Part shown: positions 10,723 through 60,187 of the stretch, piece after piece | How the letters are laid out: every line of letters begins with the position of its first letter | Numbering within the stretch: position 1 is the stretch's first letter | Assembly: GCA_008632985.1 (NCBI GenBank) | Contig: QPGO01000176.1 | Coordinates: forward strand, 79,778-143,777 | Length of the DNA stretch: 64,000 nt | Source of the DNA: Psammoneis japonica | Lineage: Eukaryota | Direction: 5' to 3' | Translations under genes and position numbers: made by a program | The notes under the pieces: model-generated | Told to the model about the DNA's origin: nothing | What the model saw: the letters and a program-made list of their open reading frames with translations, nothing else | The model's database searches: none

Positions 10723-11029
10723 GGTTGCTCGACCCGGACTGGAAAGAAAATGGGTTTTGCATTGCCAATGCCGACAAGGACTTCTGGACCTCCCATGATC
10801 TTTGTTTCTACTTTGATTCGTTTGCCTGTGGGATCATTGTATTCTACCTCAAGATGTGACACGCTGGTACCCGACCACTACGTCTTTTCGTCAACCCTGA
10901 AGACGGTAACTGCCACCTCCTCATTCATGTCTTTTTCGAGTTGAAAACAGGACGGCGGAACTTGTGAATCGTCCGTTGAGCACGCACGTCGAGCTCGAAT
11001 TTTGCGTTCAACGGAAATCAGATTCTTAA

Positions 11030-14000: not shown

Positions 14001-15215
14001 GCTGGCCAAGCTTCCTTTGAAGAACAGCACAATTCTTTGTTGACAAGCACATTTTGCAACAGCAAAACAGATCATCACAAACATCCACTTTGGGCTCAGA
14101 CTGCTGTCCACTTTCCATGACACTGGAGTTTTTTGTCATGGCCACTCATGCAACACAAGCATGAGCCTTCATCAGCACCTGCTGCTCATGCTTGTTTGGT
14201 GTTTTGCAGTTGTGCTGACAGTCCAGCTGCTGCCAGCACAGCAACACCTCCAGGTTGAAGGAGGGCATCATGCACAACATTTGTGACTCTGCAACAGCAT
14301 CCTGGTGTGGTGGCTGCGGCAAATTGCATCAGCCAGCCAAATTTGCACCCGCACTTGCTCTTGGACATTGCACTGCTTGTCCAATCACTGACCAATGTTG
14401 ACTCCGCCTTGTGCACAGAGCTCCATTGTGTTTCATGCATTGCTCATCAGAGTGTTGTGTTTTAGACCATTGACAATGCTCTGACTGAAAGCTGGAGTTT
14501 GGTGTTGAAGTCAGCAGAGCCAGGAGACCCATGAGACCTTGACCATCTCCAAGCTTGAGCCCCACCTTCTGTTCTGCTGAGGACAAATTTGATGATGGTT
14601 TTTGCTGACATTGCAATGCCAAGCTTTGTGCACATGTGGCTGCCACCCAAGCTGTTTTTGCCACTGATCCTTTTCTTTTGAGTGACACAATGACAGATCA
14701 ATCCAAGCTTCAAGCTTCCCCCAGTTTCTGGTCTCACCATTCTTTGAAGCACAAACTTTGTCTTTGCATGCTCACACTTGATCAGATGATGCAGCTTTGA
14801 GGAAGGGTGTGGAGAGTGAGTTTTGGCTTCACAGGTGTTGCTCAAATTTGTCAGTCATGCCTGGCTGTCCTTGCTTGTGGATCCTCCATGGTGCTCCGTT
14901 GACAACAACAGATGGACCTTGCAAACATGTCTGCTCTCCACACAGTGCGCCACAAGCATGCCAGCTGTTGGCTTGCTGACCATGATTCCCAGATTGTTCT
15001 GCACCACACATGGTGCTCACTTGCACACCAGCAGCTTGCTCCAGCTGTGAGCAGCAGGGCACAATGGTGAAATGGGCGGAGCCCCCAACAGGGATGTCCT
15101 GATGGTGATTGTGAATTTGCAGCACAGTCTCAATTGTGCTGCAGGTGTTCTGCACATTTGAGAGCCCCAGCACACTGTCCAGAGACCACACTGCTGGTCA
15201 ATCATTTGAAAGAAG
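11030..15215. repeat. Unclassified degenerate repeat block, TpA-depleted
   Basis: About four TA dinucleotides seen in ~4.1 kb (11596, 12111, 12808, 14463); only short Cys/His-rich ORFs; no family recognised. Confidence 0.65.
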
Positions 15216-15548
15216 CTTTAGCACCGGACAAGGGTAGTCACGGGCAACAATCTCACTGTGCTTCAATTCGTTGCGTCCTGGAGCCAACTTCTTGGACCCT
15301 GGTTTTTTGAGTGCCTCTCGGAAAGAGACTGTGGCCACTGGCTTTTGCGGAAGCAAAAAACAAAAACCCTCTTCAAGATTGGAAGTCGAGCGAAGGTGGA
15401 CGTTACGAAAGAATCCCAAAACAAGGCTGAGTCTGAAATTCTTTTTCTTTTTCGACCTGGTACTTTGTTTATGATCACTGCGGTTGAAGAACACGACGAT
15501 CCCACGTTTGGAAAGTGGAAGTTTGTTTCAATGCGAGAGATTCATTAA
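15200..15548 (+). pseudogene. ADP-ribosyltransferase (C2/C3 exoenzyme-like R-S-E type) C-terminal fragment, frameshifted
   Basis: FLDPGFLSASRKETVATGF in one frame, then TLFKIGSRAKVDVTKESQNKAESEILFLFRPGTLFMITAVE in the next; resembles the (S)TS and ExE motifs of ART domains. Confidence 0.55.
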
Positions 15549-20790: not shown

Positions 20791-21189
20791 ACAAACTTAC
20801 GACGTTCGAATCTTTAGTTTCTCTGTACTAGAGAGTATAGTAGCTAGCTACTTCAGGATTGAGATGGCTCGAGCACACCCCCAGTGGCTCTGTCGATGGC
20901 TTTCTTCTCTTGCTCCGCCAGTTTTATTTAAAAAAAGATGCAGGCGATCAGCGACGAAATAGTCTGTCGACGACGAGCCTTGGGGCATGCTGAAACGAAT
21001 ACCTCAGCGTGGACCCCAGGCGAGAAGGGGATGCTGACGAGAAGACATCCAAAAGAAGGAGAGCAGTGTGGTGCAAAAACAAAATGATGACGTCAAAGTG
21101 TGCAACGGCATCGCAAGCGCTACGACCGCCATCGCAGTCCATTGACATGCGTGCAGAATAAATTACACGCAAGTGTGATTGCTGCATCG

Positions 21190-21536
21190 TGTGGGAAAGT
21201 AGCCAGAATTCTAAGATTCGTCTGCACTTTCAGTGATTAAAAGCTGTAATTGCGATACAACAATCAATCAGTAACTTTATTGTACCAAAAGTTGAGAGGT
21301 GATAATCAGTACGTTAGAAAGATTATGAGCAGTTTTTATGAGCAGATGCAGCTGCCATCTAAAGGAAACGCGAAGTTAAACAAGCGCGAAGCTAGGAACA
21401 AACATCGCATTCGTGACTCGGCTTCCGCGGGATTCGAGACTGAGCATCGCACACGGGGTTCGAATCTTGGATCTCTGATTTGAATCGTGGAGGTCCGATG
21501 TTGTTGTAAAAACATGCAAATATGAATATTGTCACA
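21190..21536 (-). repeat. 3' LTR of the young copia element
   Basis: TGTGGGAAAG...TTGTCACA, 347 bp; aligns without gaps to 27414-27760 with 17 substitutions; PPT GAAGGGAG on the minus strand at 21537-21544. Confidence 0.97.
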
Positions 21537-21579
21537 CTCCCTTCAACAATGTCGGGTGGAATGATGACTCGAAAACGTC

Positions 21580-24500
21580 TTACCACTTAAGGAGCGATTT
21601 CCTGTGTTTAACGAAGAGATTCTGTGGTAGAGGTTTGGTGAAAATGTCTGCAATCTGATCCGCCGTATCAATTGGTAGAATTGATATGAGACCTTTGCGA
21701 ACATGGTCTTTAAAGTGGTGGAGAGTGAGGTTGAAGTGTTTTGTCCGAGGACGCATCTTAGGCAATCTCGCGATCTCCAATGCTCCAGAATTGTCTTCAA
21801 AAGCCTTACAATAACAATGTACGACTGGTGTCTTGGAAGGGACATTATGACCGTGATCCATAAATTCTTGAATTAGGTTCATAATTGGGATGGCGCTTCG
21901 AAGACTTTCCGAAAGAGCGATAAATTCAGCTTCAGTAGTGCTGAGCGCGATCTGAGTCTGTAGCTTGGACGTCCAGACAATCGGACATCCTGCATAGGTG
22001 ATGACAAACCCAGTTCGAGATTTGGAAGTGCCGACGTCATCGGGTGCAGTCAGCTTATTCCAATTGCCCACAAAGTCCGCGTCGGCGTGAACTTCAAGGG
22101 ACTTGTCCGTTGAGGGCTGTAGTATAATACCTTCAGTTCTGGTTGACCTTAGGTACTTACAGAGCCATAGTACGGCTTCACCGTGAGAAACCTTGGGATC
22201 GGAAGAAAAGCGTGCGACTTGGTGCACCGCGTAAGCGACATCCGGTCGAGTGCTCTTCTCCAGAAAATTGAGCTTGCCGATGATGGATCGGTAATGAAAG
22301 CTCCCTTGGAAAGCAGGCTCACTCATATGCCTGTGGAGGATCTTGGAGGAAGGAGCAGGAGTAGGCTTATCTGGTAGTCTCTTTGGAATGTTGGCCATCT
22401 CCAGCATCTGATTGATAAGGTGAGGTTGGGTAAGTTTCATTCTGCCGTCTGGTAGTGTCTCGACGTTGACACCGAGATAGTCGTCCAGAGTGCCTTGATC
22501 ATCAATGTCAAAATTCTCATCTCTGACATCCTGTATCGCCTTGTCAACAGCAGACTTGTCAGGGGATGCAAAGATGCCGTCATCGACATAATGGATGAAA
22601 ATGACATTGCCACGAAAATGCAGGCACTCATCAACCGCCGATTGTACGAAACCAATCCTTAACAATCCATCACGTAAGTGTTCTTGCCATACTCTCCCTG
22701 CTTGCTTTTGTCCATATAAGTTCTTGAGCAACTTCAGAACATGAGTCTTGCCATTGCCACATTTTGTTTCAATTCCTGCAGGTAACTCCATGTGCATGTC
22801 ATGTTCGATATCGGCATGCGGATGCGCCAGAACGAAGTCGACTTGGCGTGTATGCCACTTCTTAAGAATGGCAATGATCAGCAGGAGCCGGACAGTGAAC
22901 CAGAAGACCACGGCAGAGTAGGTCTGGAAGTGGTTGACAGCATGCTCTTGCTTTCCGCCGTGCACATTAAGTCGGGACTTCCATTTGTAGACGGCTTGGG
23001 TCTTAACATCTCTTTTGCGCTTCATAGACCATGCCGAAGGGAGAACATCAACATCGTCAGGTACGTCCTCTCTTGGAATGAGTATCCAATGTTTCCTTTC
23101 AATGTGATCATTGACCTCCTTAACACAGGCCTTGATAAATTCGTCTCTGTCAGGTTCACGCATAGCCTGATCAAAGTACATGGTGTCGGGGTCCGAGCTC
23201 GCCAGAAAAGAGACAGGTGAGTCCATATCGTCCTGCAGTTTGTAATCATCCTCGTGCATCGCATCATAATATGCCTCTGCCTCTGCATTGTAGGAGACAA
23301 TGCCTTGAGCCCGTTGCAGTTGGCTCTCGCGCATCCTTTCGGTCGGGCGTCGTTGTCGGCCGGACCTGCTGGCACTGGGTTGACCCATAGTGCGCTGTGG
23401 GTCAGATGGTGCGTCAGAATCATCTGGAGGCGTGTATAGCATTTCATCATCCGGTTGGGCATTATCAAATGAGTCATCAGTGGTAGACGTATCAGTAGGA
23501 TGCAGCAGCTGAGACGGGACATCCGAATTCGGCTCAGGTGGTTCCGTTGTGGCAGGGACTGATCCCTCAACCGGTACGTCACTTGATTTCCCAAAGATGT
23601 TGAAAGCACTCCTTGTCTTGAGTTGTCTGAAACCTGTAATGCCTTGCCATTGTGAGAATGTAGGAGGATTCCCAGCAAAAGGGCGAACGGTCTCAAAGAA
23701 GTCGTCAAATTGTACGTGAAATTGCGGCGATACGAGTCCGGTCTGCAAATTCAAAACCAAGGTAACTGAACCTGCGTGTCTTGTTGATGGTCCCAAATTG
23801 ATTCCTAACCTTGCCCTTGGGTCCCACTTAGGCAGCCTACCTCCTCCCTGCAACCGGTTGTGCAAGGCGTAGACGGGACAGCCGAAGGTATGGTGTTGTT
23901 TGAGATTAGGCTGGACCTTGACGGACGAGAAACGTTCCAGCGGAGAAGAGCCGTCCTCGTGATTCGGTAAGTGATTCTTGATCTCGTTTGAGTTCCTGAG
24001 AGCGCTTGGCCATAAGTTCAACTCAATAGCCGTTGGCCATCTCACTTTTGCATGCAGGAGTTGCTTCCGAGATTGCTCTTGGAGGTCCCTTATTCTTTTC
24101 TCCGCGATGCCGTTTTGGAAGTGGGCGTTGACCCCACAATAGGATATTGTTTGCTGTTGCTTCTTGACGTCTTGTATGAAAGCATTGTCAGCAAATCTTC
24201 CATTGTCGGCGTGGCAGTGTTGAATACGGACGTGCATCCGGCGTGCGAATGCCTCGAAAGCGTGCTTGGCTTCGAGCGTCTCGGCTGAGGTAAGTCCTTT
24301 CTGCAAATATATGTATCCCAATCCGCTGAAATGATCAACAAAAATTGTCGCTGCTCGATGCCTTTGTTTCGTAGGTCTCCCTTTGAGCTGTGGGATCAAT
24401 CCAGGAGTAGGACTCTCGAGCTGGTCGACGGATGCGGCTTCTCCAGGCGAAGTTGCCAAGTGGATTCGTCGGTTCCGCTTGGACTTGGAGCGCCATGGTC

Positions 24501-27339
24501 GTTTCGTCATGGCACCGTACAGGCAGCCGGCACATTTTGGGTTGTGCACCTTTGTAAGGCGTTTCGGTAGAATGCCTGGGGCGGCCAATAGCTTTATCAT
24601 TTTGAATGACATGTGGCCCAGGCGGTAATGCCAACGCAATAGTTCACCCTGGTCATCTGTGGCAGCAAGGGCGTCATCATTTGGTATGATGTTGATGGGT
24701 TCCGGCAAGTCCTGCTGTACCTCCGGTGTCGTGAAATCCCTTGGGTTTTCCTCGTCTGAGTCTGAACGACTTGCTCCGTCTGTTGGCTCAAATAAGACAG
24801 GAGCATCCTCATCAGCAGTGTTGCGTGCGTCTTGCGTCTCGGAAGGACGTGTCTCGGATGGACTTCTGAAGACGTCTGCATCAATTGCAGCCTCGTCATC
24901 ATTCGCAGTGCTCTTGTCGTCTGGTGGTATGATGTGAGCTTGACAGGCCACGTGCTCGATAGTTTCGACATCGGTTTGTTCTTCGACAGCGGCTGCAAAG
25001 GTCCGGTGTTTGTTGTAACCGGGTGCGGAGCGCATCTTGGCGACATTAGAGTTGGCGGACCATGGAATCAGGCGATGGCACTTGCGCTGGTCCCACATCA
25101 GCAACAGTCCGTCGTCCCTGGTCCAAGATACGGTTCCGTGAGGCTCTGGCGTGTGGTCATCAGCTTGTTGGCTCCATTGCTGCGGGCAGAGAAGACAATG
25201 AGGTGAGTCCGGCACGAGTGGCGCGTCTCGAATTTTGATGCTGTGCACTCGTCCCATGTCGTCCTCAATTGCCCACTGCACTGTTCCTTCTCCCTTAGCA
25301 CGCAAGTGGCCCTTGACACCGAGTGCCACTTTGTTGGATTTGCGAAGAGGACCAATGAAGTGTGCCTCGTTGTTGGACATGGCGCAGGAAGAATGTGAGT
25401 CGACACCGATTGCGAATGAGTCCGAATCGCAAGTGGGCTCCGTTCGCTCGGGACGGTGTGGTGTGGTTGAGTTGCACGCTCTAACCGTCTTGTGTCGCGC
25501 AATGACACAGTGAGCCTTCTTGGTGGCCACTCTGGAGCGGTGACCTGGCCTCGTCGAGGTGTGATGCCGTGCACAGCACCTCGTCGTTGGCCGTCGCTGG
25601 TGAGTCTTAACTCGTCTTGTGCCTGGTTCAGCCAGGACATGTGAGATGACCCACTCACCCAGCGTCATTGCGGCATGTGACAGGCACTTGCACTTTTCTG
25701 AAGGAAGGGATGGCATCATGAATGGCAGCATGATCCAGATCGATGCTGCACATTTCATGACGCCAGCGACCGCTGTCAGAAGCACTGACACAGTGACGGC
25801 CATCTGCAAGGACAGCAGCAGTGTCAGAGTGAACCTGCAGAGCAGTCGCTCTTGATCCACTTCGTTTGGGATGGTGGAGATGGCACTTGCGAAGGAGACT
25901 TTCTTGTCCGACGTGTCTGTGGATGGAGCAGACTGTTGCTTGCGGAGTCCACAGCCTTGGTTGCCCGGATCATCAGGTGAGTGTATGACCCAAGCAGTGT
26001 GATGTGGGCACCAGTGATGGTCGCGATTGTTGACGCGCTTGTGACAGTGCTGATGACCGTTCACTGTCTTCTCAGGAGCGTCCTCCTCAGGCGGGACTTT
26101 CTTCCAGGCTTCGTCCGCTTTCTGTCTCTGACGTGGAGTGGTCTTGGTCTTCCTTGACCGTGTGCTTCTTTCCTTGGTTGAACCAGCCTTGGCCTTCAAA
26201 GCTTTGGACAGCTGAAGGTTCTGATCCTTGATGGAGTCTACCTTGGCTGCAAGCGCGACGATTTGCTCTTCAGCCGGTGATGGTGCTCCCCACTTCTTCT
26301 CGCGCTTGAGGTTGGCACATTTGTTCAGTGCCGACGTCATGATTTGCGTCGGCGTGAATTCCTCACCGTCGTCGCACCTGTCCTTGTGTGACATGATGCA
26401 CTTGACGAATGCTTCGTCAGCAGCTGCGGCGTGTCCTTTGAACAGGTTCATGATGAGGTCGTCGCACTGCTCTCCTCTGGCTTGGAGTCCGTCAACGTTG
26501 AGCTTGGCGTGCTTGTTGAGCTCTTCGATGTCCGAGTTGACAGCCGCCATGTGCGCATCCAGGCTTGACAAGTTCTCGCGGAAGCAGTTGGTGGCAGAGC
26601 GTGTGTCAACGATGGCCTTTTGCGCAAGCAGCTTGAAGAACAGTGCGCTGATTTGATTTCCATTGATCGCACGGGAATCTGTCTCAGCCAACATCTTGTC
26701 TCTTGCTTCCTCCGCAAGGGATTGAGAGATCGCCTCGGCCATCTGCACATTGTTCTGTGCTTGTCGCGCAGGCAGATTCGCGAAGGTGTTGGCGTGGGTT
26801 CTGACATCCTGTGGAGTGAGCAGTCCGCACTCGGAGATGAGATCTCGTGGAGTTCCATTCGCATCGGGAATGGCAAGTGTGTCTCCTGCCCCTGTTTTCC
26901 ATCCTGCCTCGGCAGCTCGTTGACTGAGTGTCTCACAAAACCATTTGAGACCTTCTGAGTCGCCGTTGAACTCGCGCGGCAGCGGTGCAGCAGCGGCGTT
27001 CCAAAGCTTGAGGCCTTGCGATGTGCCGCAGTCGATGAAGTTGTTGGGACGGTGTTGACCTGGAGTCAACGCGAAGATCGGCAGTGGTGGCACAGGTGCC
27101 AATGGTGGTCCACCTGGCGGGACTCCACCTGGCGGGACTCCACCTCCGCCTCCTCCTCCACCTCCTCCGCCACCTCCTCCTGGAGGCACACCGGGAGGAA
27201 CGACTGGGGGAGGTGCAGGAGCAACTGGAGCGGCTGCAGGAGCAGGTGCTGTTGCCGGAGCAGCAGCAGTGGCAGGAGCTGCAGCGGGAGCTGCAACAGA
27301 GGCAGCCAGAGCAGCCGCGGTTCGTGTCTGCGCGACCAT
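21580..27339 (-). CDS. Copia gag-pol polyprotein, open but mutated
   Basis: 1919-aa ORF: gag, protease (GVDSHSS), GAG-pre-integrase WHYRLGH..C..C, integrase (SVDQL, HADNG, QNGIAEKRIR), RT (LYGQKQAG, YVDD), RNase H (ADADF, STTEAE, EDNSGA, ADIFTKPL); integrase precedes RT. Confidence 0.93.
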   Translation of the reverse strand: MVAQTRTAAALAASVAAPAAAPATAAAPATAPAPAAAPVAPAPPPVVPPGVPPGGGGGGGGGGGGGGVPPGGVPPGGPPLAPVPPLPIFALTPGQHRPNNFIDCGTSQGLKLWNAAAAPLPREFNGDSEGLKWFCETLSQRAAEAGWKTGAGDTLAIPDANGTPRDLISECGLLTPQDVRTHANTFANLPARQAQNNVQMAEAISQSLAEEARDKMLAETDSRAINGNQISALFFKLLAQKAIVDTRSATNCFRENLSSLDAHMAAVNSDIEELNKHAKLNVDGLQARGEQCDDLIMNLFKGHAAAADEAFVKCIMSHKDRCDDGEEFTPTQIMTSALNKCANLKREKKWGAPSPAEEQIVALAAKVDSIKDQNLQLSKALKAKAGSTKERSTRSRKTKTTPRQRQKADEAWKKVPPEEDAPEKTVNGHQHCHKRVNNRDHHWCPHHTAWVIHSPDDPGNQGCGLRKQQSAPSTDTSDKKVSFASAISTIPNEVDQERLLCRFTLTLLLSLQMAVTVSVLLTAVAGVMKCAASIWIMLPFMMPSLPSEKCKCLSHAAMTLGEWVISHVLAEPGTRRVKTHQRRPTTRCCARHHTSTRPGHRSRVATKKAHCVIARHKTVRACNSTTPHRPERTEPTCDSDSFAIGVDSHSSCAMSNNEAHFIGPLRKSNKVALGVKGHLRAKGEGTVQWAIEDDMGRVHSIKIRDAPLVPDSPHCLLCPQQWSQQADDHTPEPHGTVSWTRDDGLLLMWDQRKCHRLIPWSANSNVAKMRSAPGYNKHRTFAAAVEEQTDVETIEHVACQAHIIPPDDKSTANDDEAAIDADVFRSPSETRPSETQDARNTADEDAPVLFEPTDGASRSDSDEENPRDFTTPEVQQDLPEPINIIPNDDALAATDDQGELLRWHYRLGHMSFKMIKLLAAPGILPKRLTKVHNPKCAGCLYGAMTKRPWRSKSKRNRRIHLATSPGEAASVDQLESPTPGLIPQLKGRPTKQRHRAATIFVDHFSGLGYIYLQKGLTSAETLEAKHAFEAFARRMHVRIQHCHADNGRFADNAFIQDVKKQQQTISYCGVNAHFQNGIAEKRIRDLQEQSRKQLLHAKVRWPTAIELNLWPSALRNSNEIKNHLPNHEDGSSPLERFSSVKVQPNLKQHHTFGCPVYALHNRLQGGGRLPKWDPRARLGINLGPSTRHAGSVTLVLNLQTGLVSPQFHVQFDDFFETVRPFAGNPPTFSQWQGITGFRQLKTRSAFNIFGKSSDVPVEGSVPATTEPPEPNSDVPSQLLHPTDTSTTDDSFDNAQPDDEMLYTPPDDSDAPSDPQRTMGQPSASRSGRQRRPTERMRESQLQRAQGIVSYNAEAEAYYDAMHEDDYKLQDDMDSPVSFLASSDPDTMYFDQAMREPDRDEFIKACVKEVNDHIERKHWILIPREDVPDDVDVLPSAWSMKRKRDVKTQAVYKWKSRLNVHGGKQEHAVNHFQTYSAVVFWFTVRLLLIIAILKKWHTRQVDFVLAHPHADIEHDMHMELPAGIETKCGNGKTHVLKLLKNLYGQKQAGRVWQEHLRDGLLRIGFVQSAVDECLHFRGNVIFIHYVDDGIFASPDKSAVDKAIQDVRDENFDIDDQGTLDDYLGVNVETLPDGRMKLTQPHLINQMLEMANIPKRLPDKPTPAPSSKILHRHMSEPAFQGSFHYRSIIGKLNFLEKSTRPDVAYAVHQVARFSSDPKVSHGEAVLWLCKYLRSTRTEGIILQPSTDKSLEVHADADFVGNWNKLTAPDDVGTSKSRTGFVITYAGCPIVWTSKLQTQIALSTTEAEFIALSESLRSAIPIMNLIQEFMDHGHNVPSKTPVVHCYCKAFEDNSGALEIARLPKMRPRTKHFNLTLHHFKDHVRKGLISILPIDTADQIADIFTKPLPQNLFVKHRKSLLKW

Positions 27340-27400
27340 GGTGACAGCAGAGTAAAGCAGAATCGAGAGCTTAAGATCGATTGACTTAACTTGTAGATTT

Positions 27401-27413
27401 CGCAGAGGAAGCG
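27401..27413 (-). promoter_or_regulatory. Putative primer-binding site complementary to the D-arm of initiator tRNA-Met
   Basis: Plus strand CGCAGAGGAAGCG(TG) abuts the 5' LTR and resembles eukaryotic tRNAiMet ...GCGCAGCGGAAGCGTG... Confidence 0.55.
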
Positions 27414-27760
27414 TGTGGGAAAGTAGCCAGAATTCTAAGATTCGTCTGCACTTTCAGCGATTGAAAGCTGCAATTGCGATGCAACAATCAATCAGTGACT
27501 TCACTGTGCCAAAAGTTGAGAGGTGACAATCAGCACGTTAGAAAGATTGTGAGCAGTTTTTATGAGCAGATGCAGCTGCCATCTAAAGGAAACGCGAAGC
27601 CAAACAAGCGCGAAGCCAGGAACAAACATCGCATTCGTGACTCGGCTTCCGCGGGATTCGAGACTGAGCATTGCACACGGGGTTCGAATCTTGGATCTCT
27701 GATTTGAATCGTGGAGGTCCGATGTTGTTGTAAAAACATGCAAATGTGAATGTTGTCACA
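27414..27760 (-). repeat. 5' LTR of the young copia element (hypermutated copy)
   Basis: Colinear with 21190-21536; 13 TpA sites converted to TG/CA. Confidence 0.97.
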
Positions 27761-27858
27761 CATCGCACTTCTGGTCTTTCCGCTTCTGTTGCATGGAGGT
27801 TCAAAGCGTGTTTCAAAAAACTTGAAACACCATTGTCAAAAGCCGCCATTGATTCGGT

Positions 27859-30800
27859 TGAACTGTTTGCCATGTGGTGATGTTTTGTGTCATGAATTTG
27901 TGTGTAGAACACAATGTAATTTAGCGACAATGAGGATTCGACGTGAGTGCTGAGTCGAGCTCACTTCTTGAAAATAGTAGCACGATGTTACACCTTTTCT
28001 TTTAGTCTATTCCCTAGGTTCCTAGTGCACGTCTTCACAGGGTAATTTATTCACTTTATCACAGCCATATGCCGCATGTAGTGACAATATCATAGTATTG
28101 ATGATTTCGCTTGCGATTGTTTCGCAACAACAGCTTTCGTTCCGCAAGGTCAGGGATGACGAATGAACATCTACGAGCACAAGACGGTGCTCGTGCTTGA
28201 CGAGTTGGTTACTCCCGGGTGTGGTTCAACTATGGTGCGCATTGACAACTACAGTGTCGACCATTCTGATGTGTCTCACAGCGAACACACACGGACACAG
28301 AGCGCAACCCATGGATCTGGGGACGCCATTTCCATTCCGAAGTCATCTCGCGGAGGCAACGCGCGCGTGAGCAATTTGAAATCGCTGGGTGATGCGGCAC
28401 AACGTCAGTCAGTCGCTGAAATTGCATGTCATGTGCAGACACAAAACATCACAACGCTGCACAATTCATGATGTTGTGCTTTGCACTGGCCACTGGCATC
28501 GATCAAGTGGATCGTAGGAACGTTCTTAGTTCGCTGCACAAGTCACGGCAGTCTCATTGTGCCGGCAGACCCATTGGCAATGCAAAACTGGCTGAACAAA
28601 CGACAATGAAAAAGCGCGCATCGTGCTCACTTTTCACACAATTGTGAGTTTTTTGACCACACGCACCACCGACACCTGCCAAAACAGCACCATGGCGGCC
28701 ATTGCAGCTGTGCGAGCCGCGCGCCGTTGCCCAGGCTTCATGGACGCTGGTTCCGTGGCCCTGGCCAATGAGCAGGGAATCCACTCGGTCGACGAACTGC
28801 TTCACTTGGACGACCATGAGGACGTGACCTCACGCAAGGCCGCTCGCCGCCTTGGAGGAGCTGCTCCTCCAGCAGACCCAGCAGCTCCACCCCAACCCAA
28901 CTTGGGTGCTGCTGTCTCTCTCCATGCAGAGATGAGTCTAAAGCTTGCTGCTTGTGCCACTCGCCACTGCTCCCGCATCTCCCATGCTCCACCTGTGAGG
29001 TCCTGGACACCCTGCCCAACATCTTTGAGAAGGACTGGACGAAGATGATGGAGTCTGTTTCAGAGCACCTTCACACCTGCCGCAGTGAAACCAAGATGCC
29101 GCTTGCCTGTGTTGTTTGCAATGAACCTGCTGCACCTGCTGAGGCCGATGACGACCAGGACAACTGCTGCGGGGATGCTGTTGCCAAGATGATTGCTTGT
29201 GAATCCCATGCCATGACTGGGGCAGATCCCCAGCCCACTGAAACCTTTGTGGTGTGCAACCACAAGGTTTGGGAGATCACAGAGCAGGTGTTGCCAGGGA
29301 GCACTTGTGCTGGGCTTGTGTCAAGTCAGCACAATGTGCACAGGATGGCAGGACAGCCTGTCAAAACCTGCACGATCACTTCCTTGGCCCCAACAACATG
29401 GACAACATGGCTGGTGCAGCCAAGAAGTGCCTTGCAGGCCTCTCACACCATGGGGAGAAGTGCAGCTGGAACTTTGAGCATTGCACACGTGTTCATGTGG
29501 AGCAGCACACCATCCTTGATGGACTCAGGGGGAGCATGGCTGCACCAGCATTGACAAACAATCCAGAGTTTGCCATCTGTTGGAGAGAGCGTCAAAGATC
29601 CGAGAAGCTTGACTCAGTTAAGATGCAGATTGTGGCCAGTCCCAACCTGCACAGCAACTTTGACACATGTGTGGTCCTGTGCAAGGACTTCCTCAAACAG
29701 CCCAAGCCCAAGGACTCCAACTCTTCCTTGTGTGTTGCAGCTCTGAAGGCTCAGAAGCGCAAGCAGTGCAAGAAGGATGTCATCCATGCACAGGATGCAG
29801 AGGACAAATGCTGTCCCAATGAAGAGCATGGCTGGTTCTCGCCCAAGGCATGAAAGCGGCTTAAGACTCTGCACAAGAATGACCACGATGGTTCCAAGAT
29901 GGATGCCATGAAGCAAGTCAAGGCTCTTGCCAAGAACCTCCCTGCTCAAAGACACCATGACCAAGAACGGGCATGATGAGAATGGTGGTCTTGAGCCTGG
30001 ATGGAAGAAGCAGGAGATTGACAGCCTGCAACGGTCATGCATCTCAGCCCATTGCAGACCTTGCACCTGACTCAGACCACCATGACGGCAGCCACACGCA
30101 AGGAATCTCAGTCTGAGATTGATGGTCATGCAGACACAAGTGCATCAGGCAGGTGTGCTTTAATTTTACTTGACTGTGACCACCCAGTTGACATCACAGG
30201 ATGCAACCCCAACCCAGGCTCTGGCAAAAGCTTGCGCACCGTCAGTGGCGCCCTGATGTGCACGGATCCTGCCATGGGCCAACAACACATCTTGGCAGTG
30301 CACCAAGCCATCCATGTCCCGCATCTACAGCACAACTTGTTGGGCCCCATTCAATTGTGGCTGAATGATGCAGGCCCAAACTTGAAACCCAAGTTCCCAC
30401 TGTCAAAGCCCAACAATCAATCACATGCAATGATGTTGGAAGACATGGATGACTCAGATGAGTCAATCACACCACTGGAACTCCATGAAGTTGTGAGCTG
30501 CTTTGCCACCTCCAAACTGACTGTTTCAGAGTGCAAGGCTGCTGTGCAAGATGGCACAGTCCAGGAACTCACCTGTGAAACCCCCGCATGGGACCTGCAG
30601 GAGTCGGACTTCCCGGCCAGGGAGGGTGCCATGACAGATCCCCTTGGCTGCGTTCCTGAGATCGGGGACAATGCATGTGCTCAAATGTGGATTGTGAGCA
30701 CAAAGCTCTTGCGAAACGCAGCACAAGAGACCTCCAACGCTCTTGGGAACAAGCCACTGTGAAAAATCTTGAACGCGTGTGATGACTGTGTGCTGCTTCT

Positions 30801-33800
30801 TGCATCCATTGGCCTCTCTTTGCTCAAGACAATGAAACAGGGCTTGAAGGCAAAAGCGGAACAGTTGGCCAAGAATTGGTCCATCAGCCTCAAAGATGCA
30901 GAAAATGCAGCCAAGGTCACTGCTCAATGTGGAGCCCAAACTGTGTTGCACCCGGCGCTGTCACATCAATTCCACACCAATGACCAACAATTGCACCACA
31001 GACGCATTGCAAAAGAGATGCACTCTGACACCCTCTTCTGTCTGTCAAGTCAAGATGTGGCAATGTCTGTGTGCAGGTTTTTGGTGTGGCCAGTGGCTGG
31101 GCACGCGTCTGTCCATTGAGGTCCAAAGGGCTTGTCCACGAGGCACTGTCCCCACTCTTTGCCCAGGATGGGGTGCCACATGCCATGACAGCAGATGGTG
31201 CAAAAGAAGAGATGCTTGGTCAGTTCAAGTCAAAAGCCAGGGAGGCTGATTGCTGCATTTGACAGACCGAGCCTCACATTCCTTGGTCCAACTTTGCTGA
31301 AGGCACTGTTCGCAAGCTCAAGCGAGGTGTCGGGGATGGATGGTCAAGACTCAGGCACCCAAACATCTTTGGGATGATTGCCTTGAACTTGAAGCCTTGA
31401 TCCACTCCAACACTGTGCATGACATTTGCGAGCTTGATGGCAAAGTGCCGGAGACAGCAGTGTCAGGACAGACAGCCAACATTTTGCACACATGCAAGAT
31501 CGGATGGCATGACTGGGTCATGCACAGGCACCCAGGCCCCAGTGGGGATGCAGGACCAGCAATGACCGCCAAGATGCTCAAAGAGAATGGGCAAGTTGTC
31601 CACAGATCCTCCTGCCAGGCTCTCACCCCAGAGGAACGGCATCACAAGACACACCTGGCGTTGAGGGAAAAATTCCATGCAATGGTGGAGGCCAAGCTTG
31701 GTCCCGGGATGGCCATCAGCAACATTGATGACCCCGATGCGATCACTCCCACCTTTGATCTGCACAAGGACGACTCAGGACAAGACCCATCTGGTGCCCT
31801 GGAGGCCGACACTCCACCTGACACAGCTCACAATGTCTGCATGAACGCCAAAGTTTTGCTGCCACATGGGGACATGCACCAAACCGGCAAGATCAAATGG
31901 CGGAAGCTGAACCCGGACGGAACACCGGCAGGACAAGCCAGCGCCAATCCCACCCCAGACACGCTCGTCCATGAGGTGGAATTCCCTGATGGTCAAGAGG
32001 CCGAACCAGTGGCTGATGTCATTGCCAAGAACATGTTCGCCCAATGTGACAATTGGGGCAACCAGCATCCATTGCTGGATGCTGTCGTGGACCACAAGAC
32101 CAATGAGCATGTCATTCAGATGCAGGACATGGTCTCCCAAGACAGTGGGGGGCACTGATTCACTCGGAAAATGACCAAAGGATGGCACCTTTGTGTTCGT
32201 TGGAGAGACGGCACCACCTCTTGGGAGCGACTTGCAGATTTGAAAGATTCAAACCCTGTGGAGCTGGCTGAGTGCACCAGAGTGTGTTCTGTTGAAGACA
32301 AACCAGCCTTTGCTTGGTGGGCTCCACACACCTTCAAGAAGTGAGCAGATTGTGGCCGCCATCAACAAGCACTGCCACAAGCAGACTCACAAGTGTGGGA
32401 TGCATGTTCCCAAGACTTGTGAAGAAGCCGTCGAGATTGATGAGGCAAATGGGGACCACCAACAATGGCAGAATGCCATTGACAAGGAAATGGGTGTGGT
32501 CAAGAAAGCCTTTGTTTTCATTGATGATGATGAGAAGCTGGCAGGGTGCCAGCACATCAGATGCCACTTGGTCTTTGATGTCAAACTGCAGGACTTCAAG
32601 TGCAAGGCCAGCTGTGCAGCAGGGGGACACACCACTGAACCTCTGGCTGCACTGACATGTGCCAGTGTTGTTTCTTGTCAGAGCGCAAGGACAGAGTTCA
32701 CTCTTGCCACCCTCAATGACCTGGAGGTTAAGGCCACAGATGTCGAGAATGCCTGCATCACCACTCCCAACAGCAAGAAGACAACTGCAACTCCAGGGCC
32801 AGAGTTCAGACCTGATGCAGGCAAAAGAGCAATTGTCCAGCATGTCCTTTGTGGATTGAAGAGCGCTGGTGCTTCTTTCAGAAATCATTTGGCCTCATGC
32901 ATGAGACATCTGGGATGGTTGCCATGCCTGGCAGATCCAGACATCTGGATGAAGGAAGAGGTCCAACCCGACGATGGGTTCCGGTGCCATGCCTGCGCAC
33001 TGTTGTGTGTCGATGATGCTTTGATGGTGCACCATGATGCCACATGTGCTCTCAAGGAGATCAACCGATGCTTCAAGATGAAGCCCGGTTCAACAGGTGA
33101 TCTTGAGATGCATCTTGGAGCCAAGATTTGCAAGACAGAGCTGCCAAATGGTGTCCATGCTTGGGGCATGAGTTCCAGCAAGTGCGCCCAACAGGCCATC
33201 AAGAATTCAGAGGTGCGTCTTCATGCAAAGTGCCCGGGGATGATGTTGCCATGCCAGGCAATTGCTCCCTTCCCACGTGACTGCCCGAGGTTGATGCCAC
33301 TCCTGAGCTTGACACTGATGAAGCTCAGTTTTGCCAGTTGCAGGCAGCTGTTCTGCAATGGACAGTCAAACTTGGACGTGTGGATCTCATTGCTGAGGTT
33401 TCTGAGCTTGCCTCCTCCCTTGCAGAAAAGACACAATGCCAGGCTGGTGTTTGATCTGACACATCCGGAGATTGACATGCCTGACTTCAAGGAATGTGAC
33501 TGGAAGTCAATTTGTGGGGATGTCAAGGAGGCGATTCCCAGCAATGTGCCAATCCCTCTAGACAAGGAGGTTGATCTGCACCTGTTTGTAGACTCTGATC
33601 ATGCCAATGACAAGTTGACAAGGCATTCACACACAAGCTGTTTCATTTGCTTGAACATGGCTCTGGTTGCATGGTTTTCCAAGCGCCAGAGCACCGTTGA
33701 GACTTTGGTCTTTGCTGCCAAGTTTGTTGCCATGAAGCAGGGCATGGAAGCCTTGCGTGGTCTGAGACACAAGCTGCGAATGATGGGCACACCATTGTCT

Positions 33801-34364
33801 GGTCCATCCTGCATCTGTGGCAATGGCATGTTCATCATTCACAACACACAGAGCCCTGAGTCCACTTTGAAGAAGAAGTCGAACTCGATTTGCTGCCACG
33901 CTGTTAGAGAGTCAGTGGCAATGGGTGAATCCCTCACTGGACACATCCGATTGGAGTGCAATCCGGTGAACATTGCCACCAAGATCATGTGCAGTGGCAT
34001 GAAACAAGATGGACTTGTGAGCATGGTGCTTCACAATTTGTCAAGTCCTGAGCCAGTTCCCTCAACCCACTGGGTTTGTTGCAGGTTGTTGGGGTTCCCT
34101 TGTTGCCTCTGTGCAGCTGAATGTGACCAGACTGTAAATTGAGTCAAGCCAACTCAGTGTCTGCCTCGTCAACTTGAGGGGACTGAACAATTTACCATGT
34201 GGCAATGTTGCACATGAATTTGCATGCAGAATGTAGAATTTGGTGACAATGAGGACTCGATGTGAGTGCTGAGTTGAGCTCACTTCTTGAAAACAGTGGC
34301 ATGATGTTGCACCTTTTCTTTTAGTCTGTTCCCCAGTGCACATCTTCACAGGGCAATTCATTCA
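27859..34364 (+). mobile_element. Older degenerate Ty1/copia element (second family) with LTRs at ~27859-28053 and ~34184-34364
   Basis: Related TGAA...TTCA LTRs, PPT TTGAGGGGAC before 34184, gag (HDHFLGPNNMDNM), protease (EIDGHADT), integrase, RT (LCGLKSAG, LLCVDD), RNase H (FVDSDHA, LKKKSNSI); many stops and frameshifts; no matching TSD found. Confidence 0.88.
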
Positions 34365-35479
34365 AAGTTGTGCAGATGAAGTTGCCTCAAGAGCACCACC
34401 AACGATGGCTCTTAAGTTTTTCCCATTTTTAGGGTGGATCAACACACCAAAAAAAGAAAAAGGGGGGATGCACTGCAGCGACAACAAGAAAACTTGTGAG
34501 TCAAGCATGTGCCAAATCAACACTCCCTGTGAATGAAGACTTGTCGCGCCATGTTGCTGACGCAACGGAGCCCCAAATCCCTGTGTTCCATCAACAGCAT
34601 GATGTGCTCAGCAAGCTTTTGCTGCTTTTCAGACAAATGCTGCTCTGTCTGTTTCAACAACCATGTTTTGATGGGCCAAGCAAACAGACAACTTCCTGCA
34701 CTCAAAGGCTTGAGAGTGACATGGACTCAAGGCCGGAGAGATGCACTTGATGTGCACCCTGACCTCCAGACTTAACTGGCAACACCCACACCACCAATTT
34801 CAACAGCACAAGAGTGCTGAAGCAACTTTGACAAAAAAAAAGAGAAGCCACCAGCATCGGAGTTTAGCTCATCCATGGCTCCATTGGATGCTCTGCCAGC
34901 ATTGTCAGTCACACTCCTTGAATGATGAAGCAAAGAGAAGTGCTCGATCCTTCTCTGCATTGGAGTGGACTCAGGTTCAACGCTCTGCAGATGGGGCCCG
35001 TTGCCCTTCTCCTTTGCCTGTGGCACCATCATTGTCCCGGCACCAATCACTGACATTTTGTTGCGGCAATTTGTGCTTGCATCAGTGTGGACAGATTTTT
35101 GAAAAATGGCAATGTTTGAAACCAGAAGAAAATGGCAGGAAACAAATGTTTTTTTTCACTGTCACATTTTGTGTGGATCATGTGAGCCCCATGACATCAG
35201 CAGAACACACACAAACAAACAAGCACCAAACTCCAAGATCATTTGTTTCCTTCTTGCAGCAACCTTCAAGCACACACACCCACACCTGCACACACAGCAT
35301 CATTTCATTGTTTTGCTGACCACAACACATGGGCAACAGGCAGTGCTGGATTTTGTTGCTGACACTTTTCCTGCCAAATTTTCCAACAAAACATGCTTTG
35401 CAGTGTTGTCCTGAGAAGTTCATGCACAAAAAGAGAGAGGTGAGATGAACTCCAGTTTTTCTGCCATTTGCACTTGTTG

Positions 35480-35900
35480 CTCACTGCTTGCGCTGCACTT
35501 TCCATTGTTTCTTGACAGAGTCAATGAACCCATTGCATGGGAGCCCACAATTGTGTGGAAGACAAAGTTTCTTTTGTCTGAAGTGGTGTCACTTGATTTG
35601 GTTGCATGTGTGGCCAATTTGCTGTGACAACAACAGGATGCAGGAGAGCCTTTTTACATTCTGCCAGTTGTGCAAACTCCCATCAAGCCGCCATTGTGCC
35701 ATGCTTTTCCAAAAAATGAGCCCATTGCATGGGAGCCTGCAATTGTGTGGAAGACAAAGCTTCTTTTGTCTCAAGTGGTGTCACTTGATTTGGTTGCATG
35801 TGTGGCCAATTTGCTGCAACAACAGGATGCAGAAGAGCCTTTTTGCATTCTGCAAGTTGCACAAACTCCCATCAAGCCGCCGTTGTGTCACGCTTTTCCA
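35480..35900. repeat. ~200 bp tandem duplication within a TpA-depleted block
   Basis: AATGA.CCCATTGCATGGGAGCC..CAATTGTGTGGAAGACAAAG...CCCATCAAGCCGCC at ~35523 and ~35715. Confidence 0.85.
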
Positions 35901-36362
35901 TTGATCTGCATTTCATGTTTGGGATGTGACCTTGCAGGTGGCAGCTTGATTGGCTTGAAAAGCATGCACTGTTCTGCAGCACTTCTTTTGGCTCTCAGCC
36001 TTTTGGGCTGTTCGACGCAAAGCAAAGCATTGCTTGGTGCTCCACCTCCTCTTTTGTGTGTTGGCATGCCAAGCAAACAACTCCTTGGAGCCACCACATG
36101 AGGCAAGATCATTGTGCCAGTGCAGAACAGCACAGCAGAAACCTTCCTCTGTGACACTGTTTGATGCTGTTTGCAAGGAAAAGAACAGACAAAGTGGTCA
36201 CAGCAAAGATTGGTTGGATGTTGCAACAAGCAATCCAGGAAGATCAATGAACTTTTCTCCCTTGTGGTTTTGTTTTTGAGGAAGAGTGGCCTTGGGTCCA
36301 TTTTTGGACTCACAATGTTCTGCCTTTGGGGTTTTGCAATGCAAAGGGCCTCCATCTGCTGT

Positions 36363-39100: not shown

Positions 39101-39419
39101 GCAGAAAAGGCCACGAGTCACAGGTCATTGAACCCCCCCATCTCATGGAGTGTGCACACACGCAAACATTGGTTGACCCCCTTCCAGACTGAAATTGACA
39201 TTCACTCATTTGGAGCACAACATTTTCATTTATTTTCACCATGCTGATTGGTGTGTTTTGTGCTTGTTGCTCCCAGATGTGTTTTGTTCAATGTGCACTC
39301 ATTGACTTGAATGCCAACACACCAAGCAACATGGCAGCATCGCTCCACCATCTCTTGACGATTGCATTTCCTTCCAACTGAGACCTGTTCATTTTCACAT
39401 TGTGCACGCATTTCCACCA

Positions 39420-39720
39420 AAAGCGCTGCATTTCCGTCTTCATGATGCACGTCAATCATTCAGCAAAATTTTCACCTTTTTCTGTTTCCCCCTCAAAACC
39501 CATCCTCACCATCGACTCATGATTGCATCTCTGAACAGTTGAATTTCATTCCAGCTGAAACATGTTTGTTTTCACATCAGACATGGCATTGCCGCCAAAA
39601 GCACTGCATTTCCATCTTCATGATGAACGTCAATCATTCAGCAAAATTTTCACCTTTTTCTGTTCCCCCCCCAAAAACCCATCATCACTGTCGACTCATG
39701 ATGTTCCGTTTGCAGCATTT
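39420..39720. repeat. ~180 bp tandem duplication
   Basis: CTGCATTTCC.TCTTCATGATG.ACGTCAATCATTCAGCAAAATTTTCACCTTTTTCTGTT at ~39426 and ~39604. Confidence 0.8.
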
Positions 39721-52200: not shown

Positions 52201-52259
52201 CCTCAGACGTGCGGCGTTGACTGTGCGGGCTTGGCATTCGGAAACTGCAAACAAGATGG

Positions 52260-60010: not shown

Positions 60011-60187
60011 GCGAGCCAAAAATGCGCGCTTCACCGTCCTCTGTCTGCGATGATTCGCGTTTTTTTTCTTCGACGCGAAAATCCATGATCACCATGATGT
60101 GTCCGTTTGTCCCTTAAATACTGAGCCCATGTTCATATCTGTCACTCACGCTTTCGTTACATGTTTGCCGCTCCCTACAGAATCAAC

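What the first reader, a model, noticed from the sequence alone, without database searches (positions are those of the whole stretch)
21190..27760. Reverse-RIP: TpA to TpG/CpA hypermutation seen directly between the two LTRs of one retrotransposon
Seen: the two 347-bp LTRs (matching TSD CATCG) differ at 17 sites, all transitions. 13 are TA in the 3' LTR and TG or CA in the 5' LTR (e.g. GATACAA/GATGCAA, TGTAATT/TGCAATT, AATATGAATATT/AATGTGAATGTT); 13 of the 19 TpAs are converted. Two more are AA>AG on the minus strand next to a converted TA, and two are CpG-type. Established: LTRs are identical at insertion; fungal RIP converts CpA/TpG to TpA; ADAR/APOBEC editing of retroelements is strand-biased. 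Inference: a post-integration, double-strand, TpA-directed A>G mutagenesis, the exact inverse of RIP, acting as a genome-defence system. I do not know of it being described. Candidate mechanisms are a TadA/ADAT-like DNA adenine deaminase, or pol-eta-like error-prone repair (WA>WG) recruited to methylated repeats.
Basis: partly seen in the sequence, partly recalled or inferred. Interest (0 to 1): 0.97.

Follow-up and report, generated by a model that had tools for sequence, protein, structure and literature searches.

The report
TpA-erasing hypermutation of diatom transposons
In this diatom genome, transposable elements have had nearly every TpA turned into TpG or CpA, the opposite direction to fungal RIP, and one young copia retrotransposon shows the process half done; I found no published description of it.

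Summary
A Ty1/copia (CoDi-like) element lies on the minus strand (LTRs 21190-21536 and 27414-27760, TSD CATCG). Its LTRs differ at 17 transitions, and 13 of them are TA in the 3' LTR against TG/CA in the 5' LTR.

I expected ordinary RIP with the polarity misread. The tests say otherwise:
- At columns conserved among 31 homologues, 15 changes fit TA>TG/CA and 1 fits the reverse. Invariant Tyr codons read His or Cys.
- Of the 40 displayed differences from other copies of the family in a public run, 23 are "window TG/CA, others TA" and 0 are the reverse.
- Residues 38-650 contain no Tyr.

The window also holds sharp TA-free domains, about 28 kb of 64 kb, with 0-3 TA per kb against 55-75 expected. 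The older ones are also CpG-poor. TG and CA counts are about equal, so both strands are hit. Two of 120 copia homologues from other public records show the same Tyr>Cys/His signature.

The host is a diatom. Ten literature searches found no description.

Best reading (0.72): a real, TE-directed, DNA-level TpA>TpG/CpA hypermutation. The enzyme is unknown; I favour an adenine deaminase that prefers TAY. Rivals: RNA editing with cDNA conversion, slow mutation bias, artefact, RIP.

The parts
27414..27760 (-). 5' LTR of the copia element, the mutated copy: 6 TpA left, 13 read TG/CA
21190..21536 (-). 3' LTR, near the ancestral state: 19 TpA, rho(TA) 0.64, like ordinary DNA of this window
   Evidence: X1 contig record 2 covers 21492-22047 with 2 other letters
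21185..21189 (.). target-site duplication CATCG, left copy
27761..27765 (.). target-site duplication CATCG, right copy
21580..27342 (-). gag-pol reading frame (Met at 27342; stop-to-stop frame 21580-27453). It is open but damaged: invariant Tyr codons read His/Cys. An open frame is no sign of function, because TA>TG/CA cannot create a stop codon
25130..27352 (.). TA-poor core inside the element (5 TA in 2.2 kb; none in 26240-27352) with normal CpG. It encodes 613 residues without Tyr
27761..27904 (.). unique flank next to the mutated 5' LTR with no TA in 144 bp (5.7 expected): a possible leak of the process
5549..7857 (.). old TA-free, CpG-poor domain D1 (4 TA)
11028..15218 (.). old TA-free, CpG-poor domain D2 (4 TA in 4.2 kb)
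28528..42290 (.). old TA-free, CpG-poor domain D3 (29 TA in 13.8 kb). It holds an inverted pair of degenerate copia-like relics, 31725-34036 and 36699-39079
47163..52279 (.). old TA-free, CpG-poor domain D4 (9 TA in 5.1 kb)
63234..64000 (.). start of a further TA-poor, CpG-poor domain that runs off the window
22782..26982 (+). antisense transcript of the copia family with about 13 short introns, seen in X2 contigs. Several GTAAGT donors read GCAAGT or GTGAGT in the window copy

Best explanation
The window comes from a diatom. Its transposable elements are subject to a DNA-level hypermutation that changes TpA into TpG or CpA, that is, A:T to G:C at one of the two A:T pairs of the TpA step.

The copia element at 21190-27760 was hit after it inserted. 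About two thirds of the TpA in its 5' LTR and almost all TpA in gag are converted. Roughly a quarter of conserved Tyr codons in pol are converted, and none of the TpA in the 3' LTR. Older elements are driven to saturation and form sharply bounded TA-free domains. They then lose CpG more slowly, presumably through cytosine methylation and deamination.

The result disables coding sequence (Tyr to His/Cys, Ile to Val/Met/Thr). It creates no stop codons and leaves G+C near 50%.

Shown: the spectrum, the polarity, the use of both strands, the domains, and the same signature in other public copia records.

Inferred: action in situ after integration, targeting of repeated or silenced DNA, and a burst-like rate.

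My commitment on mechanism, about 0.35 given that the phenomenon is real: an enzyme deaminates adenine to hypoxanthine, read as G, at 5'-TA, preferring TAY. It acts in strand-coordinated patches on DNA of silenced or transcribed repeats, with about 150 bp of spill-over. The alternative is oxidation or modification of the T of TpA, giving T>C.
For: Spectrum: 13 of 17 LTR differences are TA against TG/CA, all in one direction. No change lies outside TA, its immediate neighbours, or CpG/TpG sites (P = 5e-10).

Polarity:
- Of 583 columns conserved in 31 homologues, 58 are changed in the window protein. 24 of those are explained by one transition: 15 TA>TG/CA, 1 CA/TG>TA, 8 other. The remaining 34 are not single transitions.
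- Of 26 conserved Tyr, 5 read His (CAY) and 1 reads Cys (TGC); 15 are kept and 5 are other residues.
- Of the 40 rows that read laying displayed out of 947, 23 are 'window TG/CA, others TA', 0 the reverse, 7 'window TG/CA, others CG', and 10 other. They include the sites behind Y1508H, Y1080C, I1483V, I1521V and L959P.
- Residues 38-650 have 0 Tyr in 613 aa, against 3.4-4.2% in homologues.

Generality: TA-free stretches cover about 28 kb of 64 kb, with 0-3 TA per kb against 55-75 expected. Edges are sharp, for example no TA in 41388-42290 and then 20 in the next 170 bp.

Both strands: TG against CA is 1513/1595, 570/559, 264/278 and 468/531 in the four old domains. Among 289 adjacent double mismatches in an old repeat pair, 96 are CA<>TG and the next class has 15. 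This is what independent resolution of YpR steps would give.

Order of events: the copia core has lost TA but keeps CpG (rho 0.78-0.90), while old domains have lost both.

Reality: X1 contigs reproduce TA-free sequence, for example 33996-34741 with 0 other letters.

Other records: 2 of 120 homologues show the same signature at 22 conserved Tyr columns. P0003 has 13 Cys, 1 His, 7 Tyr and 1 other; P0051 has 6 Cys, 3 His and 13 Tyr. The mean over all 120 homologues is 0.024 (13 of P0003's 40 changes are Y>C).

In situ action: intact TSD with unequal LTRs, and 0 TA in 144 bp of unique flank. Gaps that long are 4 of 1056 in ordinary DNA of the window.

Sequence preference: of 46 surviving TA in the old domains, 31 have no TAY on either strand (TTAA 14, CTAA 15, CTAG 2), against 16% of 1061 TA elsewhere (P = 9e-15).
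Against: - No outgroup LTR was seen. Polarity at the 17 LTR sites rests on the internal sites, on composition, and on one multi-copy contig over the last 45 bp of the 3' LTR.
- Only 40 of 947 difference rows were displayed, and the tool chose them by support.
- X1 may be the data the window was assembled from, and its library type is not on record. It excludes an assembly slip, but not every chemistry-specific artefact.
- P0003 is strongly one-sided (13 Cys : 1 His). RNA editing of the sense transcript would predict this. I could not see its DNA or learn its source.
- The patchy profile along the element (5' LTR 68%, six unconverted TA at 27353-27436, gag about 100%, pol partial, 3' LTR 0%) has no explanation yet. 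Gene conversion from a mutated copy could also produce it.
- Evidence that the old domains are TE relics is thin. There is one sub-threshold RVT_2 match among 75 ORFs and one tblastn hit, and no terminal repeats at their edges.
- No enzyme, trigger or life-cycle stage is known.
- In one other diatom, passages of a preprint report 5mC but no 6mA. That gives no support to routes through adenine methylation.
Confidence: 0.72

Rival explanations
1. RNA editing fixed through reverse transcription. An ADAR- or ADAT-like enzyme deaminates A at UA in element transcripts. The edited RNA is copied into cDNA, which either integrates or replaces part of a resident copy by gene conversion. That would leave the 3' LTR untouched.
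For: A>G with a 5' U/T is the known preference of adenosine deaminases (recalled, not tested here). P0003 has 13 Tyr>Cys against 1 Tyr>His, so almost all its changes are A>G on the sense strand. X2 contigs show abundant spliced antisense transcripts of the family, so sense and antisense RNA could pair. Sharp domain edges would follow if elements were already mutated when they inserted.
Against: Both products occur in the window copy, counted on the + strand: LTR 7 TG: 6 CA, internal 11 TG: 12 CA. Old domains have TG about equal to CA, including each arm of the oppositely oriented pair. Reverse transcription makes the two LTRs identical, yet here they differ while the TSD is intact. The unique flank 27761-27904, which is not part of the element RNA, also lacks TA. 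Antisense RNA is not a template for tRNA-primed reverse transcription, and the antisense introns are still present in the DNA.
Confidence: 0.12
2. There is no dedicated system. A context-dependent mutation or repair bias in methylated heterochromatin slowly removes TpA, together with the ordinary decay of methylated CpG.
For: TA loss and CpG loss coincide in the old domains. Passages of PMC9998398 say diatom TEs are CpG-methylated by DNMT5.
Against: In the LTR pair, 13 of 19 TpA changed while none of about 290 other non-CpG positions away from a TA changed, which implies a rate contrast above 100-fold. The copia core has lost TA while CpG is still near normal. Saturation reaches 0 TA in 2.4 kb. 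Only transitions occur, and only at TA.
Confidence: 0.1
3. Base-calling or assembly artefact. A modified base at TpA in heterochromatin is read as G or C, so the real DNA still has TA.
For: The library type of X1 is not on record, and X1 may be the assembly's own data. Modified thymines at TpA are known in other protists (recalled).
Against: k-mer contigs of X1 match TA-free sequence exactly over hundreds of bases (0 other letters in 746 bp), which noisy long reads would not give. Each TA reads either TG or CA and CpG is not created, as expected if one real change removes the target. A symmetric miscall would not behave so. The frame stays free of indels over 1957 codons. Other copies in the same run read TA at the same sites. 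Two other public records show the same signature.
Confidence: 0.04
4. Ordinary RIP-type C>T at CpA/TpG in the 3' LTR, with the reader's polarity reversed.
For: It is the only described dinucleotide-specific repeat hypermutation, and two LTRs alone cannot give a direction. Passages of PMC9998398 say diatoms carry RID-related DNMT4 genes of unknown function.
Against: Polarity tests give 15:1 and 23:0 against it. Repeats in this window are TA-free, not TA-rich. The 3' LTR has the TpA level of ordinary DNA (rho 0.64 against about 0.55), while the 5' LTR is depleted (0.24). Heavy RIP would have put stop codons into a 1957-codon frame.
Confidence: 0.02

Closest known systems
Repeat-induced point mutation (RIP) of Neurospora and other Pezizomycotina
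   Same: Transitions aimed at one dinucleotide. Multi-copy mobile elements are the target. Both strands are hit, mutation runs to near saturation, and domains have sharp edges with a short spill into flanking DNA. Relics coincide with cytosine-methylation-type CpG decay. Single copies can be strand-biased (P0003).
   Different: The direction is opposite: TpA is the substrate, not the product. The change is A:T>G:C instead of C:G>T:A, so cytosine deamination or RID-type chemistry cannot explain it. G+C stays near 50% and no AT-rich isochores form. Stop codons are destroyed, not created. The host is a diatom. Dependence on repeats or on a sexual stage is untested.
ADAR hyper-editing of retroelement and viral RNA; fungal A-to-I mRNA editing by ADAT2/3-type enzymes; TadA (recalled, not tested)
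   Same: A read as G with a 5' U/T preference. A TAY preference would resemble the UAC context of the TadA substrate.
   Different: Those act on RNA and mark one strand. Here both strands, unequal LTRs and a unique flank point to DNA in place.
APOBEC3/AID editing of retroelements
   Same: Deaminase-type hypermutation that disables retroelements, with context specificity.
   Different: Those are C>U on minus-strand cDNA before integration, giving G>A on one strand. Here the changes are at A:T pairs after integration.
CpG decay of methylated transposons (DNMT5-dependent methylation in diatoms; passages of PMC9998398)
   Same: It explains the CpG loss in the old domains and 7 of the 40 displayed private changes of the copia.
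   Different: It cannot remove TpA, and it lags behind TA loss in the young element.
Pol-eta WA>WG mutagenesis of somatic hypermutation
   Same: A>G at TA.
   Different: That process also hits AA and gives many transversions. Here only transitions occur, and AA changes only next to a TA. Saturation is near 100%.

Membership tests
Ty1/copia LTR retrotransposon (diatom CoDi-like) | LTRs with TG...CA ends and a 5-bp target-site duplication | tested here: met
   347-bp LTRs, TSD CATCG
Ty1/copia LTR retrotransposon (diatom CoDi-like) | Single gag-pol frame with integrase before reverse transcriptase (RVT_2) | tested here: met
   gag_pre-integrs at residues 930-980, SH3_retrovirus at 1181-1251, RVT_2 at 1463-1690. 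Homologues are 45-59% identical
Ty1/copia LTR retrotransposon (diatom CoDi-like) | Host is a diatom | tested here: met
   The best named matches of the neighbouring PI4-kinase ORF are all diatoms (Cyclotella, Thalassiosira, Fistulifera, Nitzschia, Epithemia), at 54-67% identity. Assignment to a named CoDi clade was not tested
RIP (repeat-induced point mutation) | C:G>T:A transitions, CpA>TpA, with TpA enrichment of repeats | tested here: not met
   Polarity is 15:1 and 23:0 the other way. Repeats are TA-free
RIP (repeat-induced point mutation) | Acts on duplicated DNA in place, on both copies and both strands | tested here: inconclusive
   The family is multi-copy: up to 20 different X1 contigs carry the other letter at one place. 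Both strands are hit. Dependence on repeats was not tested
RIP (repeat-induced point mutation) | Premeiotic timing and dependence on RID/DIM-2 | not testable with these tools
   No genome is held. Passages of PMC9998398 say diatoms have RID-related DNMT4 of unknown function
ADAR/ADAT-type RNA editing fixed by retrotransposition | A>G on the transcribed (sense) strand only | tested here: not met
   Window copy, + strand counts: LTR 7 TG: 6 CA, internal 11 TG: 12 CA. Old domains have TG about equal to CA. It is met in P0003 (13 Cys: 1 His)
ADAR/ADAT-type RNA editing fixed by retrotransposition | Changes precede integration, so the two LTRs are alike and flanks are untouched | tested here: not met
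   LTRs are unequal with an intact TSD. The unique flank is TA-free for 144 bp
APOBEC/AID-type editing | C>U, seen as G>A or C>T in a deaminase-specific context | tested here: not met
   The derived bases are G/C, not A/T

The most novel reading that the evidence does not exclude
Diatoms possess a dedicated genome-defence hypermutator that edits A:T pairs at TpA in double-stranded genomic DNA of transposons to G:C. It works like RIP but uses adenine (or thymine) chemistry. It is G+C-neutral and makes no stop codons, so RIP indices, GC profiles and ORF-based TE annotation do not detect it. Its enzyme would be a natural DNA adenine editor with TAY preference.
Probability: 0.55. Interest if true: 0.95.

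Novelty: categorically new. Interest (0 to 1): 0.9.

Why it matters
If this is real, it is a second, chemically unrelated solution to the problem that RIP solves, in a major group of marine primary producers.

- It would imply a natural activity that makes A:T>G:C changes in genomic DNA at a defined dinucleotide. To my knowledge (recalled) no such activity is described for cellular genome defence. It would also interest the base-editing field.
- Mutated elements keep long open reading frames and normal G+C. They will therefore be annotated as intact genes or as unknown unique DNA, and LTR-divergence dating will be badly wrong for them.
- About 44% of this window is TA-free DNA in which Pfam finds almost nothing.
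- The process can be tested directly by scanning diatom assemblies for TA-free domains and by following a repeated transgene through vegetative and sexual generations.

Tried and rejected
**My starting hypothesis.** I assumed ordinary RIP with misread polarity. Searches rejected it.

- Whole genome: not held. So no genome-wide LTR survey and no search for deaminase, TET/JBP or DNMT4 genes.
- Earlier findings: nothing on this genome or these words.
- Rfam and tRNA scans of the window: nothing.
- The listing of cluster members for P0003 and P0051: switched off.

**Searches for more copies**
- Other copies of the element or its LTR within the window: none.
- A 20-base LTR word in metagenome contigs: 4 loci that share only those 20 bases, so chance matches. 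That used the only scan.
- Relatives in viral contigs: none confirmed.
- Close siblings of P0003, to polarise it directly: the best are 62-68% identical.

**Old TA-free domains**
- Terminal repeats at their edges: none found.
- Pfam on 75 ORFs from them: one sub-threshold RVT_2 match and two chance-level hits.
- tblastn with 7 copia proteins: one weak hit.

**Reads**
- X3 laid nothing, and X2 contigs covered few bins of the TA-free domain 27838-40500. I draw no inference from absent cover.
- No joint for an empty insertion site was among the 15 joints displayed of 94. I draw no inference from that either.

**Literature**
- Ten searches (two searches were format errors) found no description of TpA>TpG/CpA hypermutation.
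- I read passages only, using 'find', in six papers: PMC4165359, PMC7884421, PMC2806351, bioRxiv 10.1101/2025.10.24.684338, PMC9998398 and bioRxiv 10.1101/2024.10.28.620566. I opened no supplements.
- Subscription journals are not in the library, so absence from print is not proven.

**Choice between the two products.** The +1 base of the edited A is C 15, T 9, G 7, A 5 in 36 conversions. That is too weak to explain the choice between TG and CA.
Full report
**1. The observation**

The region holds one LTR retrotransposon. The repeats are 347 bp each (21190-21536 and 27414-27760). They begin TG and end CA, and CATCG flanks them on both sides.

The only long frame runs on the minus strand, 21580-27453 (1957 codons stop to stop; the first Met is at 27342). 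It carries gag_pre-integrs, an integrase SH3-like domain and RVT_2 in the Ty1/copia order. A purine-rich tract abuts the 21536 end. So 27414-27760 is the 5' LTR and 21190-21536 the 3' LTR.

The LTRs differ at 17 positions, all transitions, with no indel:
- 13 are TA (3' LTR) against TG (7) or CA (6) (5' LTR).
- 2 are A:T against G:C, 1-2 bp from such a site.
- 2 are CpG/TpG type, one in each direction.

TpA counts are 19 against 6. It is far from chance (P = 5e-10 for 13 of 17 on TA bases).

**2. Polarity**

Two LTRs cannot say which state is ancestral. My first reading was ordinary RIP in the 3' LTR. The composition profile changed that.

Ordinary DNA of this window has rho(TA) about 0.55. 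The 3' LTR has 0.64 and the 5' LTR 0.24. The adjoining gag region has 1-7 TA per kb where about 50 are expected. I then polarised the changes in three ways.

(a) I aligned the protein with 31 homologues of 45-59% identity.
- Of 583 columns conserved in at least 70% of them, 58 are changed in the window copy.
- 24 of the 58 can be explained by a single transition: 15 TA>TG/CA, 1 CA/TG>TA and 8 other. The remaining 34 are not single transitions.
- Of 26 conserved Tyr, 15 are kept, 5 read His (CAY), 1 reads Cys (TGC) and 5 read other residues. Only 1 conserved His reads Tyr.
- In all six Ile>Val changes the preceding base is T.

(b) I laid the contigs of three coded runs on 20501-40500.
- Many different contigs lie on the element, up to 20 carrying the other letter at one place, so the family has many diverged copies.
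- The tool displayed 40 of 947 difference rows, those with the best support. Of these, 23 are "window TG/CA, others TA" (11 TG, 12 CA), 0 are "window TA, others TG/CA", 7 are "window TG/CA, others CG" and 10 are other.
- They include the very bases behind Y1508H, Y1080C, I1483V, I1521V and L959P.

(c) Residues 38-650 contain no Tyr in 613 residues, against 3.4-4.2% in homologues.

So within the element TA is ancestral and TG/CA is derived. The LTR sites were not displayed. The only direct hint is one multi-copy contig over 21492-22047 with two other letters in all, one of them at 21679. At least one of the two TA sites in the last 45 bp of the 3' LTR therefore matches that contig. Otherwise, polarity at the LTR sites rests on parsimony with the internal sites.

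**3. It is not confined to this element**

TA-free stretches of 350-2400 bp tile five domains: 5549-7857, 11028-15218, 28528-42290, 47163-52279 and 63234 to the window end. There is also the core of the copia, 25130-27352. Together they make about 28 kb of 64 kb.
- Edges are abrupt. There is no TA in 41388-42290 and then 20 in the next 170 bp.
- The old domains are also CpG-poor (rho 0.02-0.4), with CA/TG near twice expectation and G+C unchanged.
- The copia core has lost TA but keeps CpG (0.78-0.90). So TA loss is fast and CpG loss follows.
- TG and CA are balanced in the old domains (1513/1595, 570/559, 264/278, 468/531).
- In an old inverted repeat pair, 96 of 289 adjacent double mismatches are CA against TG, and the next class has 15. 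That is the expected trace of each copy resolving the same YpR step independently.
- Surviving TA are mostly TTAA and CTAA. 31 of 46 have no TAY on either strand, against 16% of TA elsewhere. This suggests a TAY preference.

That these domains are TE relics is only weakly shown. There is one sub-threshold RVT_2 match among 75 ORFs and one tblastn hit, both in the inverted pair. I found no terminal repeats at their edges.

**4. Real or artefact**
- X1 contigs reproduce TA-free sequence (33996-34741 with 0 other letters; 6-10 other letters per kb elsewhere). Such exact k-mer contigs argue for accurate reads. But the library type is not on record, and X1 may be the assembly's own data.
- Each TA reads TG or CA and never CG. 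The frame has no indel. Other copies in the same run read TA at the same sites.
- At 22 conserved Tyr columns of 120 homologues from other public records, two carry the same signature. P0003 has 13 Cys, 1 His, 7 Tyr and 1 other. P0051 has 6 Cys, 3 His and 13 Tyr. The mean Cys/His fraction over all 120 homologues is 0.024. In P0003, 13 of 40 changes at 462 conserved columns are Tyr>Cys.
- I could not see the DNA or the origin of those two records.

**5. Where it acts**

Reverse transcription makes the two LTRs alike. Unequal LTRs with an intact TSD therefore point to change after integration (established knowledge).

The 144 bp of unique DNA next to the mutated LTR have no TA, where 5.7 are expected. 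Gaps that long are 4 of 1056 in ordinary DNA of the window. At three old domain edges the TA-free zone similarly extends 130-170 bp beyond the CpG-poor zone.

These are single observations, but they fit a process acting on chromatin in place with about one nucleosome of spill.

The one-sidedness of P0003, and a TG excess on the + strand in the copia core (245 against 163), suggest that single events are strand-coordinated. The RNA-editing rival predicts the same. So does RIP-like or transcription-coupled action on DNA.

**6. Host and literature**

The neighbouring PI4-kinase ORF finds its best named relatives only in diatoms. Passages of PMC9998398 say that diatom TEs are methylated by DNMT5. 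They also say that many diatoms carry RID-related DNMT4 genes of unknown function. That may bear on the CpG part, not on TA.

Ten full-text searches and passages of six papers gave no description of TpA>TpG/CpA hypermutation (listed under Tried and rejected). The library lacks most subscription journals.

**7. Verdict**

This is a TpA-directed A:T>G:C hypermutation of transposons, opposite in direction to RIP. It is seen half-finished in one element and at saturation in older DNA.

Not shown: the trigger, the life-cycle stage and the enzyme. I favour a DNA adenine deaminase with TAY preference. Thymine oxidation is the alternative. Pol-eta-type repair fits poorly.

Noticed in passing
window 22782-26982, + strand: X2 contigs skip 13 stretches of 70-113 nt on the strand antisense to gag-pol: 8 GT..AG, 2 GC..AG and 3 other, as tabled. 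The donors look like AG|GTAAGT or GTACGT. X2 therefore looks like RNA, and the copia family has an abundant, multiply spliced antisense transcript. In the window copy several donors read GCAAGT or GTGAGT, as expected from TA conversion.
   Followed up: partly
window 27761-27904: The unique flank next to the mutated 5' LTR has no TA in 144 bp and 32 TG+CA. The 144 bp next to the unmutated 3' LTR have 3 TA.
   Followed up: partly
window 11028-11164, 42122-42290, 52113-52279: At three edges of old domains the TA-free zone extends 130-170 bp beyond the CpG-depleted zone, about one nucleosome.
   Followed up: no
P0003 and P0051 (homologues from other public records): These are copia proteins with conserved Tyr replaced by Cys/His (14 of 22 and 9 of 22 columns), while Phe/Trp columns are nearly intact. 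P0003 is almost purely Tyr>Cys, which is a one-strand pattern.
   Followed up: partly
window 60125-62557, + strand: An 810-codon frame full of collagen triple-helix repeats (Pfam Collagen, E 1.2e-99) lies in a tandem-repeat region of 55-62% G+C. It is unusual for a diatom. Its lack of TA is compositional and is not counted among the TA-free domains.
   Followed up: no
window 27353-27436: Six TA survive within 84 bp across the boundary between the 5' LTR and the internal region, between a 68%-converted LTR and a fully converted gag. This protected patch is unexplained.
   Followed up: no
window 33559-34865: This is an island with about 10 TA inside the large TA-free domain. An X1 contig matches it exactly, and an X2 contig lies nearby. 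It may be a younger insertion or a gene.
   Followed up: no
window-wide: TA>TG/CA removes TAA and TAG and cannot create a stop codon. The TA-free domains are therefore full of long spurious ORFs on both strands: 75 ORFs of at least 110 codons, and 72 of them have no Pfam match at E 0.01 or better. Gene callers will mis-annotate such DNA.
   Followed up: partly
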